Shown here: piece by piece, positions 49,120-49,470 of the stretch
How positions within the stretch are numbered: position 1 is the first letter of the stretch
Layout: the number at the start of each line of letters is the position of its first letter
Virus record (IMG/VR): IMGVR_UViG_3300012209_000005
Location: 51,416 to 115,415 of that record
DNA: 64,000 nt
DNA from: a virus
Direction: 5' to 3' (one strand)
The notes under the pieces: model-generated
Databases searched by the model: none
The model's input: the letters and a program-made list of their open reading frames with translations, nothing else
Told to the model about the DNA's origin: nothing
Made by a program: the position numbers and the translations under genes

Positions 49120-49470
49120 TGTGTCCCGGTAGCTGTCGCGAGACAGCTAGGCTCCGTGATCCGTAAGGGTCCCGTAGCTAATGTTCACCAACGGTGCAGG
49201 TAAAAACGGCCCATGAGTGATAACCGGTCCAAGGCCCGCCCAACGATCTAGTTGGTAACGTGTGGTGAAAACACGGAAGGGTACAGCCGGCGAAAGTCAC
49301 GTTCGGGAGGGATAACCACGGTGCGATTCATAGCGGAGGATAGCGACAATAGCGACGCTATGCCTAAAACGGACATGCGCTGGATGTGGCGCAAGCGCCG
49401 GGCGCCTCTCAGGTGCCCGGCTTCTAGAGGTTCCGTGCTGGCAAGCTGACTCGTAAGAGCGCTACATTGC
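49120..49470 (+). ncRNA. candidate structured non-coding RNA
   Basis: Several hairpins with GNRA loops (GCGA, GTAA twice) and possible long-range stems. Confidence 0.55.

What the first reader, a model, noticed from the sequence alone, without database searches (positions are those of the whole stretch)
49120..49470. Candidate ~350-nt structured ncRNA heading the module array
Seen hairpins: TAGCTGTC-GCGA-GACAGCTA (49130-49149), GATCC-GTAA-GGGTC (49158-49171), CCAAC/GTTGG (49240-49255), ATAGCG/CGCTAT, CCGGGCGCCT/AGGTGCCCGG and CTC-GTAA-GAG. Possible long-range pairs are CACGGAA(49272)/TTCCGTG(49431) and AGCCGG/CCGGCT, which compete with local hairpins. Linkers are A-rich and no ORF is convincing. 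Multiple GNRA loops are typical of large tertiary-folded RNAs. I could not match it to group I/II intron, RNase P or tmRNA cores.
Basis: partly seen in the sequence, partly recalled or inferred. Interest (0 to 1): 0.7.

Follow-up and report, generated by a model that had tools for sequence, protein, structure and literature searches.

The report
Part of a larger folded phage leader
The flagged 350 bases are not a self-contained RNA gene but the tip and one arm of a roughly 450-base predicted hairpin, inside a 1-kb non-coding, unusually foldable stretch of a large phage genome; nothing shows yet that it is transcribed or conserved.

Summary
The window is the right 64 kb of a 115-kb, 65% GC phage record with 41 tRNA genes and a Ro60 gene. 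As delimited, though, 49120-49470 folds no better than shuffles (z -1.19), matches no Rfam family, and its two proposed long-range pairings have probability about 0.

The coordinates cut a larger fold. 48991-49123 pairs with 49282-49428 (86 pairs, probabilities mostly 0.74-0.99, outermost helix 0.53), giving an extended hairpin 48976-49442 (z -3.4 to -4.3; ten control windows +0.7 to -2.8). The two GNRA hairpins sit at its apex.

This hairpin ends a chain of stem-closed domains filling a non-coding tract, 48514-49479 (+ strand z -4.7, - strand -1.6; coding controls -0.9 to -2.4). The tract runs from a conserved block (48402-48513) to the first ORF-bearing module.

The one distant relative that could be fetched has a colinear, non-coding tract of about 1 kb that folds equally well (z -4.0). 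The flagged part is the least conserved piece of it, and the tandem hairpins are absent there.

Best reading: a structured leader or precursor joined to the module array. Expression and covariation could not be tested.

The parts
48514..49479 (+). About 1 kb of untranslated, strongly foldable tract made of consecutive stem-closed domains (48531-48617, 48640-48683, 48708-48743, 48752-48945, 48951-48972, 48976-49442, 49444-49463), with linkers mostly of 1-8 nt
   Evidence: No codon periodicity. MFE z -4.70 with 0 of 20 shuffles on +, against -1.55 on -. Coding controls of the same length: -2.43, -0.89, -1.47. Helix list.
48976..49442 (+). Extended imperfect hairpin domain ('M0'). The finding covers only its apex and 3' arm.
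   Evidence: z -3.39 with 0 of 100 shuffles on +, -2.54 on -. z -4.28 against ten control windows ranging from +0.68 to -2.83. The centroid is nearly the same as the MFE.
48991..49123 (+).
   Evidence: Helices listed. Pair probabilities 0.74-0.99, with 0.53 for the outermost helix. The rod has 86 long-range pairs, 13 of them G-U.
49282..49428 (+). 3' arm of the rod
49130..49149 (+). Apical hairpin 1: 8 bp, GCGA loop
   Evidence: Pair probability 0.98.
49150..49179 (+). Apical hairpin 2: 11 bp with two 1x1 mismatches and G-U pairs, GUAA loop; directly abuts hairpin 1
   Evidence: the pair of hairpins gives -26.6 kcal/mol on + against -19.1 on -, z -3.78 against -2.03 (boundaries chosen after the fact). 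Pair probability 1.00.
49183..49281 (+). Apical multiloop with short hairpins (49186-49196, 49208-49236, 49240-49255, 49259-49275) and A-rich linkers
   Evidence: On its own, 49183-49330 has z +1.26.
49397..49421 (+). 11-bp GC-rich hairpin with a CUC loop, a side branch of the 3' arm; the strongest local hairpin in the tract
   Evidence: -23.9 kcal/mol. Top 0.17% of 40-nt windows genome-wide. Strongest in the tract, and the relative also has its strongest hairpin last, at L093 2615-2637.
49444..49463 (+). Small weak hairpin holding the 3-bp CTC-GUAA-GAG stem
48402..48513 (.). Conserved non-coding block at the head of the tract. It holds palindromes (TTCGA..TCGAA, TGTCCTGACA), so it looks like a promoter or operator.
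   Evidence: 73% identical to the relative, E 4e-12, while neighbouring proteins are 32-41% identical. The TGTCCNGACAT sites at 47873-47884 and 47913-47924 (each palindromic, so read on both strands) and at 48494-48504 are the only five matches (one mismatch allowed) in the 64-kb window, but that count is not above chance window-wide.
49480..49508 (+). Left closing arm of the first ORF-bearing module (partner arm 49997-50025). Its core, 49486-49501, is conserved in the relative.
   Evidence: 29-nt arms, 93% complementary. 15 of 16 bases identical at L093 2663-2678.

Best explanation
49120-49470 is not an RNA gene of its own. It is the apex and 3' arm of a predicted extended hairpin of about 450 nt (48976-49442).

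That hairpin is the last and largest of a chain of stem-closed non-coding domains that fill a tract of about 1 kb (48514-49479). The tract begins at a conserved block that looks like a promoter or operator (48402-48513). It ends 1-16 nt before the first stem-closed module that carries an ORF (from 49480).

The most likely mechanism is that the tract is transcribed rightward, together with the module array, as one long and highly structured leader or precursor. The closing helices would then act as double-strand-specific processing sites, in the manner of RNase III, and/or as clamps that protect the released pieces. The GNRA-capped hairpins would simply cap the apex, and the GC hairpin would be a stabilising or pausing branch.

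Shown: absence of coding signal, the predicted fold and its excess stability, the strand asymmetry, and a parallel architecture in one relative. Inferred: transcription, its direction, and processing.
For: - Non-coding.
- Whole tract, with boundaries set beforehand by the end of the conserved block and the start of the first module: z -4.70 on + against -1.55 on -. Coding controls: -0.9 to -2.4.
- Domain 48970-49450: z -3.39 with 0 of 100 shuffles, and -4.28 with 14.9% excess stability against at most 10.2% in ten control windows.
- Long-range helices have pair probabilities of 0.74-0.99 (outermost 0.53) in a 1301-nt context.
- 15% of the rod pairs are G-U. As a plain DNA inverted repeat the arms are not significant (z 1.8), which favours an RNA-level fold on the + strand.
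- Domains follow one another with short linkers, mostly 1-8 nt. This is the pattern of the downstream modules.
- The relative G012 has a colinear, non-coding tract of about 1,050 nt between the same conserved block and the same conserved arm core. That tract has z -3.97, is built of stem-closed domains with 8-13-bp perfect closures, and has its strongest hairpin last.
Against:
- There is no covariation. Only one relative was found, and 49120-49470 does not align to it (local scores at the null; global z at best 2.35; both halves below 1).
- The hairpin model R1 found no copy in the own genome or in 15 related records.
- The domain boundaries were chosen after seeing the fold, which inflates z.
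- Some control windows reach z -2.5 to -2.8.
- In G012 the two strands are nearly equally stabilised (-3.97 against -2.77).
- The consensus scans gave no clear promoter or terminator.
Confidence: 0.45

Rival explanations
1. A free-standing functional non-coding RNA. The tract, or the 48976-49442 hairpin excised from it, would act in trans, for example as a long double-stranded decoy or sponge for a host or phage RNA-binding factor. It would not be merely a leader.
For: The structural evidence is the same as for the best explanation. The strongest hairpin lies at the 3' end of the tract in both phages, as at the end of many small RNAs. The phage invests heavily in RNA biology, with 41 tRNAs and a Ro60/TROVE gene.
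Against: No expression data and no defined ends. The GC hairpin lacks a U tract and was not listed by the terminator scan. The sequence is not conserved in the one relative. There is no Rfam match.
Confidence: 0.2
2. Fast-evolving spacer with no specific RNA function. The predicted fold would be a by-product of composition and of scattered short inverted repeats in an intergenic region.
For: 49120-49470 alone has z -1.19. Its middle has z +1.26. It is the least conserved part of the tract in G012. Mean local folding energy is weaker than in most of the genome. Some control windows reach z about -2.8. The rod boundaries were chosen after the fact.
Against: The tract defined beforehand is at z -4.7, with a strand asymmetry. 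A tract of the same length, position and foldability is kept in a relative whose proteins are only 32-41% identical. By general knowledge, phage genomes seldom keep 1 kb of non-functional DNA.
Confidence: 0.2
3. A DNA-level element, such as a replication origin, a packaging or injection-stop region, or a set of cruciform-forming protein-binding sites, rather than an RNA.
For: The tract follows an AT-rich patch and a CATG-rich repeat zone at 47500-48170. The conserved block holds palindromes. G012's contig ends 207 nt beyond the conserved arm core. In G012 both strands fold about equally well.
Against: As a DNA inverted repeat the rod arms are not significant (z 1.8), and 13 of the 86 pairs need G-U. 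In this phage the + strand is far more stabilised than the - strand. There are no iterons or repeated motifs inside 49120-49470.
Confidence: 0.1
4. One reading: a compact, tertiary-folded RNA of about 350 nt, in the ribozyme or large-riboswitch class, spanning 49120-49470.
For: GNRA loops GCGA, GUAA and GAAA lie in the apex. Linkers are A-rich (A 23.6%, T 18.5%).
Against: z is -1.19 for the unit as stated. The proposed long-range pairs have probability 0. The predicted shape is a rod. No Rfam family matches at E up to 10. There is no conservation of sequence or of the hairpin pair in relatives.
Confidence: 0.03

Closest known systems
RNase III-processed polycistronic phage early transcripts and the long processing stems that flank rRNAs (own knowledge; not tested here)
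   Same: Long-range helices bracket successive units of one transcript. Units abut with very short linkers. Stems of about 20-30 bp or more carry internal mismatches.
   Different: Here the first kilobase of units is non-coding, and one unit is a rod of about 86 bp. No transcript, cleavage site or nuclease has been shown.
Long structured 5' leaders, attenuators and stem-loop terminators
   Same: An untranslated tract lies between a promoter-like conserved block and the first ORF. It ends in a very stable GC hairpin shortly before that ORF, in both phages.
   Different: There is no U tract after the hairpin, no alternative-pairing switch was identified, and 1 kb is unusually long.
Bacterial and phage Y RNAs (YrlA), partners of Ro60 (PMC4201824)
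   Same: The phage encodes Ro60. The string GGCGAAAG at 49289-49296 fits the motif GNCGAAN0-1G. The general shape is a long stem with a looped-out interior.
   Different: Per the paper, Y RNAs are 80-130 nt, carry T- and D-arm mimics, and lie within 4 kb of Ro60 on the same strand. Here the region is about 9 kb away on the other strand, holds no T or D arms, and the motif sits mid-molecule in a 3-bp hairpin.
Curated large structured RNAs in Rfam (group I/II introns, RNase P, tmRNA, GOLLD, ROOL, OLE, HEARO and others)
   Same: Size range, GNRA loops, and a phage or mobile-element setting for several of them.
   Different: No covariance model matches, even at E up to 10. ARAGORN finds no tmRNA or tRNA in the window.

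Membership tests
Any Rfam 15 family | Score at or above the family's gathering threshold | tested here: not met
   0 hits in the whole window. No hit on 49120-49470 at E up to 10. None in the relative's tract.
Structured non-coding RNA (generic criteria) | Folding energy below dinucleotide shuffles | tested here: inconclusive
   Not met for 49120-49470 (z -1.19). Met for 48970-49450 (z -3.39 and -4.28) and for 48514-49479 (z -4.70), against controls of +0.7 to -2.8.
Structured non-coding RNA (generic criteria) | Conservation with compensatory changes in relatives | tested here: inconclusive
   Only one relative shares the tract. 49120-49470 cannot be aligned to it. Model R1 finds nothing. The architecture and the z-score are paralleled, but this is not covariation.
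Structured non-coding RNA (generic criteria) | Transcribed as a discrete RNA | not testable with these tools
YrlA / Y RNA | T-arm and D-arm mimics flanking a stem-loop | tested here: not met
   No tRNA-like hit from ARAGORN or Rfam in 49120-49470. A T-loop-like GGTTCGAAT exists, but at 48679, outside the finding.
YrlA / Y RNA | Within about 4 kb of Ro60 on the same strand; 80-130 nt long (PMC4201824) | tested here: not met
   TROVE gene at 38216-40237 on the - strand. The finding is 8.9 kb away on the + strand, and the fold is about 450 nt.
YrlA / Y RNA | GNCGAAN0-1G near the 5' end | tested here: inconclusive
   GGCGAAAG at 49289-49296 fits the string but lies mid-domain. About 0.15 such matches are expected by chance in 350 nt (my estimate).
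Intrinsic terminator (for hairpin 49397-49421) | GC-rich stem followed by a U tract | tested here: not met
   The stem is strong, but it is followed by UUCUAGAGG and was not listed by the terminator scan.
Stem-closed module of the adjacent array | The unit is bracketed by its own inverted repeat and abuts its neighbours | tested here: met
   Met for 48976-49442: a rod of 86 pairs, with 3 nt to the previous domain and 1 nt to the next. Not met for 49120-49470 as delimited. The closure is far more degenerate than the 19-34-nt arms downstream.

The most novel reading that the evidence does not exclude
The phage would transcribe a precursor of 3 kb or more, from about 48500 to about 51500, organised as beads on a string. 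About 1 kb of purely non-coding stem-closed domains, including this 450-nt rod, would be followed by stem-closed micro-gene and RNA modules. Each would be released or stabilised through its closing helix. This layout would be conserved in architecture, but not in sequence, in distant relatives. It might be linked to the phage's own RNA-handling genes (Ro60 and 41 tRNAs).
Probability: 0.2. Interest if true: 0.65.

Novelty: new member of a known kind. Interest (0 to 1): 0.33.

Why it matters
If the fold is real and transcribed, it extends the neighbouring array of stem-closed modules by a full kilobase of non-coding domains. It would then point to an unusual way of packaging and processing early phage transcripts.

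As it stands, the specific claim of a 350-nt tertiary-folded RNA is not upheld. What remains is a predicted structured leader, which is a common kind of element.

The practical gain is a corrected set of boundaries (48976-49442 within 48514-49479) and a conserved anchor (48402-48513) for any experimental or comparative follow-up.

Tried and rejected
**RNA family and gene finders**
- Rfam at gathering and at E up to 10: nothing.
- ARAGORN tRNA/tmRNA in the window: none.
- Group II domain V and the 11-nt tetraloop receptor, by eye: not present.
- YrlA features: not met.

**Search for relatives**
- blastn and tblastn against cultured phages: no DNA match. The best terminase hits are 31-33% identical, the top-ranked ones Gordonia phages.
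- One search used a wrong-strand ORF and is void.
- Protein-anchored and pattern scans of viral contigs were chance hits or empty.
- The last two viral scans returned only the one relative, G012.
- Metagenome scans and the genome scan: chance hits only.
- The downstream 72-aa ORF has one homologue, 64% identical, on a 1,136-bp JGI contig.
- Earlier notes of this scan hold no look-alike in other genomes.

**Expression**

**Signals in the sequence**
- Consensus promoter and terminator scans: nothing convincing.
- k-mer recurrence within the genome: no repeated motif inside the finding.
- Sliding 150-nt z-scores and 40-nt local energies: unremarkable.
- ORFs: no family hits.

**Comparisons and models**
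- Two-sequence RNAalifold of the conserved block and its flank: uninformative.
- Model R1 of the tandem hairpins: only a self-hit.
- Complex prediction, the structure tools and the protein atlas were not relevant.

Full report
**Context.** The window is bases 51416-115415 of a 115,415-bp IMG/VR virus record that is 93% complete. It is about 65% GC.
- Outside the window the record carries 41 tRNA genes.
- Inside the window it encodes a T4-type large terminase (32559-34313, - strand), a portal-MuF-NUDIX fusion and a TROVE/Ro60 protein (38216-40237, - strand).
- The nearest cultured phages share only 31-33% terminase identity.

**The observation.**
- The region has stops in all six frames.
- It lies in about 2 kb (47450-49450) with no codon-position GC periodicity, whereas the flanking genes show ranges of 0.3-0.5.
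- ORFs in and around it have no Pfam or PHROG family.
- The longest, 49252-49449, has only two weak hits, each to a short stretch of a much longer protein, among 1.84 billion representatives.

'No ORF is convincing' therefore holds.

**The unit as delimited does not behave like a folded RNA.**
- MFE z is -1.19 on + and -0.78 on -.
- Split up, only the two abutting GNRA hairpins (49126-49182, z -3.78) and the 3' part (49325-49474, z -2.42) stand out. The latter is driven by the 11-bp GC hairpin 49397-49421.
- The middle 148 nt fold worse than shuffles (z +1.26).
- Rfam gives nothing at gathering or at E up to 10.
- The cluster of three GNRA hairpins is in the top 1% of 400-nt windows, but similar clusters occur in coding DNA.

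**The coordinates cut a larger fold.** I folded the whole non-coding stretch between two landmarks fixed beforehand: the end of a conserved block at 48513 and the start of the first module at 49480.
- This gives z -4.70 on the + strand (0 of 20 shuffles) but -1.55 on the - strand.
- Three coding controls of the same length give -2.43, -0.89 and -1.47.
- The MFE is a chain of stem-closed domains separated mostly by 1-8 nt.
- The last and largest is 48976-49442. In it, 48991-49123 pairs with 49282-49428 through thirteen colinear helices: 86 pairs, 13 of them G-U.
- Folded alone, 48970-49450 gives z -3.39 with 0 of 100 shuffles, and a centroid almost identical to the MFE. The - strand gives -2.54.
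- In my own run it gave -4.28 and 14.9% excess stability. Ten arbitrarily placed windows ranged from +0.68 to -2.83, with at most 10.2% excess.
- In a 1301-nt partition function the rod helices have probabilities of 0.74-0.99, with 0.53 for the outermost.
- As a plain DNA inverted repeat the arms are not significant (z 1.8).

The finding thus covers the apex (hairpins 1 and 2 and small hairpins, including a GAAA loop) and the 3' arm. It omits the 5' arm. The boundaries of this domain were chosen after seeing the fold, so its z is somewhat flattering. The z of the whole tract is not subject to that caveat.

**Relatives.** Close relatives are absent from every collection I could scan. A terminase profile retrieved many IMG/VR phages at up to 42% identity. 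Among 15 large records, only one shares DNA with the tract. This is G012, IMGVR_UViG_3300024284_000007.
- Window 48402-48513 matches it at 73% identity, E 4e-12. Neighbouring proteins are only 32-41% identical and colinear.
- The core of the first module's left arm, 49486-49501, is also kept, 15 of 16 bases.
- Between these two anchors G012 has 1,050 nt, against 972 nt here. That stretch is also without coding periodicity.
- It has z -3.97 on + and -2.77 on -.
- It is built of stem-closed domains with 8-13-bp perfect closures, and its strongest hairpin comes last.
- Homology is detectable for 48514-48800 (z about 4-5) and for 48800-49120 (z about 3.4-4.4).
- It is not detectable for 49120-49470: local scores are at the null, the global z is 2.35, and both halves are below 1.
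- A covariance model of the tandem hairpins finds only itself in the own genome, G012 and 14 further relatives.

The architecture is therefore paralleled, but covariation cannot be assessed. The flagged part is the fastest-evolving piece of the tract.

**Interpretation.** The best-supported reading is a long structured leader or precursor, continuous with the module array. The 48976-49442 rod is its last non-coding domain.
- The conserved block upstream contains palindromes. It holds one of three sites (five strand-wise matches) of TGTCCNGACAT, which all cluster within 47873-48504, although that number of matches is not above chance window-wide. It is the natural candidate for the promoter or operator. 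This is inference.
- Processing or stabilisation through the closing helices is proposed by analogy with RNase III substrates (own knowledge). It was not tested.
- The rivals cannot be excluded without transcript data: a trans-acting RNA, a neutral spacer, and a DNA-level element.
- The compact ribozyme-like reading is the least supported.
- Because the phage has Ro60, I tested the Y RNA criteria from PMC4201824. Apart from a chance-level motif string, they are not met.

**Limits.** There is therefore no expression evidence, and the one closer homologous contig could not be read.

Noticed in passing
48402-48513: The most conserved DNA of the neighbourhood: 73% identical to a relative whose flanking proteins are only 32-41% identical. 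It holds the palindromes TTCGA(N5)TCGAA and TGTCCTGACA. The motif TGTCCNGACAT also occurs at 47873-47884 and 47913-47924. It is a likely promoter or operator, or a small conserved RNA.
   Followed up: partly
48675-48694: A T-loop-like GGTTCGAAT closed by a 4-bp stem; no full tRNA is called here. The relative has GTTCGAAT inside an 11-bp perfect hairpin at L093 1715-1765. This may be a tRNA-derived element, in a phage that encodes Ro60.
   Followed up: partly
48848-48870: A second small conserved island, with a 15-nt exact match (CGGCAACGAGGACCG) to the relative at about L093 2009-2026. It lies inside the stem-closed domain 48752-48945.
   Followed up: no
49486-49501 and L093 2663-2678: The core of the first module's left closing arm is conserved, 15 of 16 bases, in the relative, although the ORF that follows there is unrelated. 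The relative's contig ends 207 nt later, so its partner arm cannot be seen.
   Followed up: partly
47061-47079 / 47309-47327, and at least 6 other sites in the genome: A hairpin-forming motif, GGCAGCGAAGCTGCGCTTCC, recurs at least 7 times across the phage genome. One inverted pair brackets the small - strand ORF 47097-47297, so stem-bracketed small genes are not confined to the array.
   Followed up: no
G000:C1:18620-35534 (outside the window): 41 tRNA genes. One, at 20341-20416, is called by ARAGORN with a four-base anticodon (tagg), which would fit a frameshift-suppressor-like tRNA.
   Followed up: no
21591-25916 (-): A single 1441-aa ORF combines portal, Mu F-like and NUDIX domains.
   Followed up: no
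47500-48170: An AT-rich patch (GC 44%), followed by a zone dense in CATG and in CATGCGCACATG-type repeats and palindromes. It lies upstream of the conserved block and could be a regulatory or origin region.
   Followed up: no
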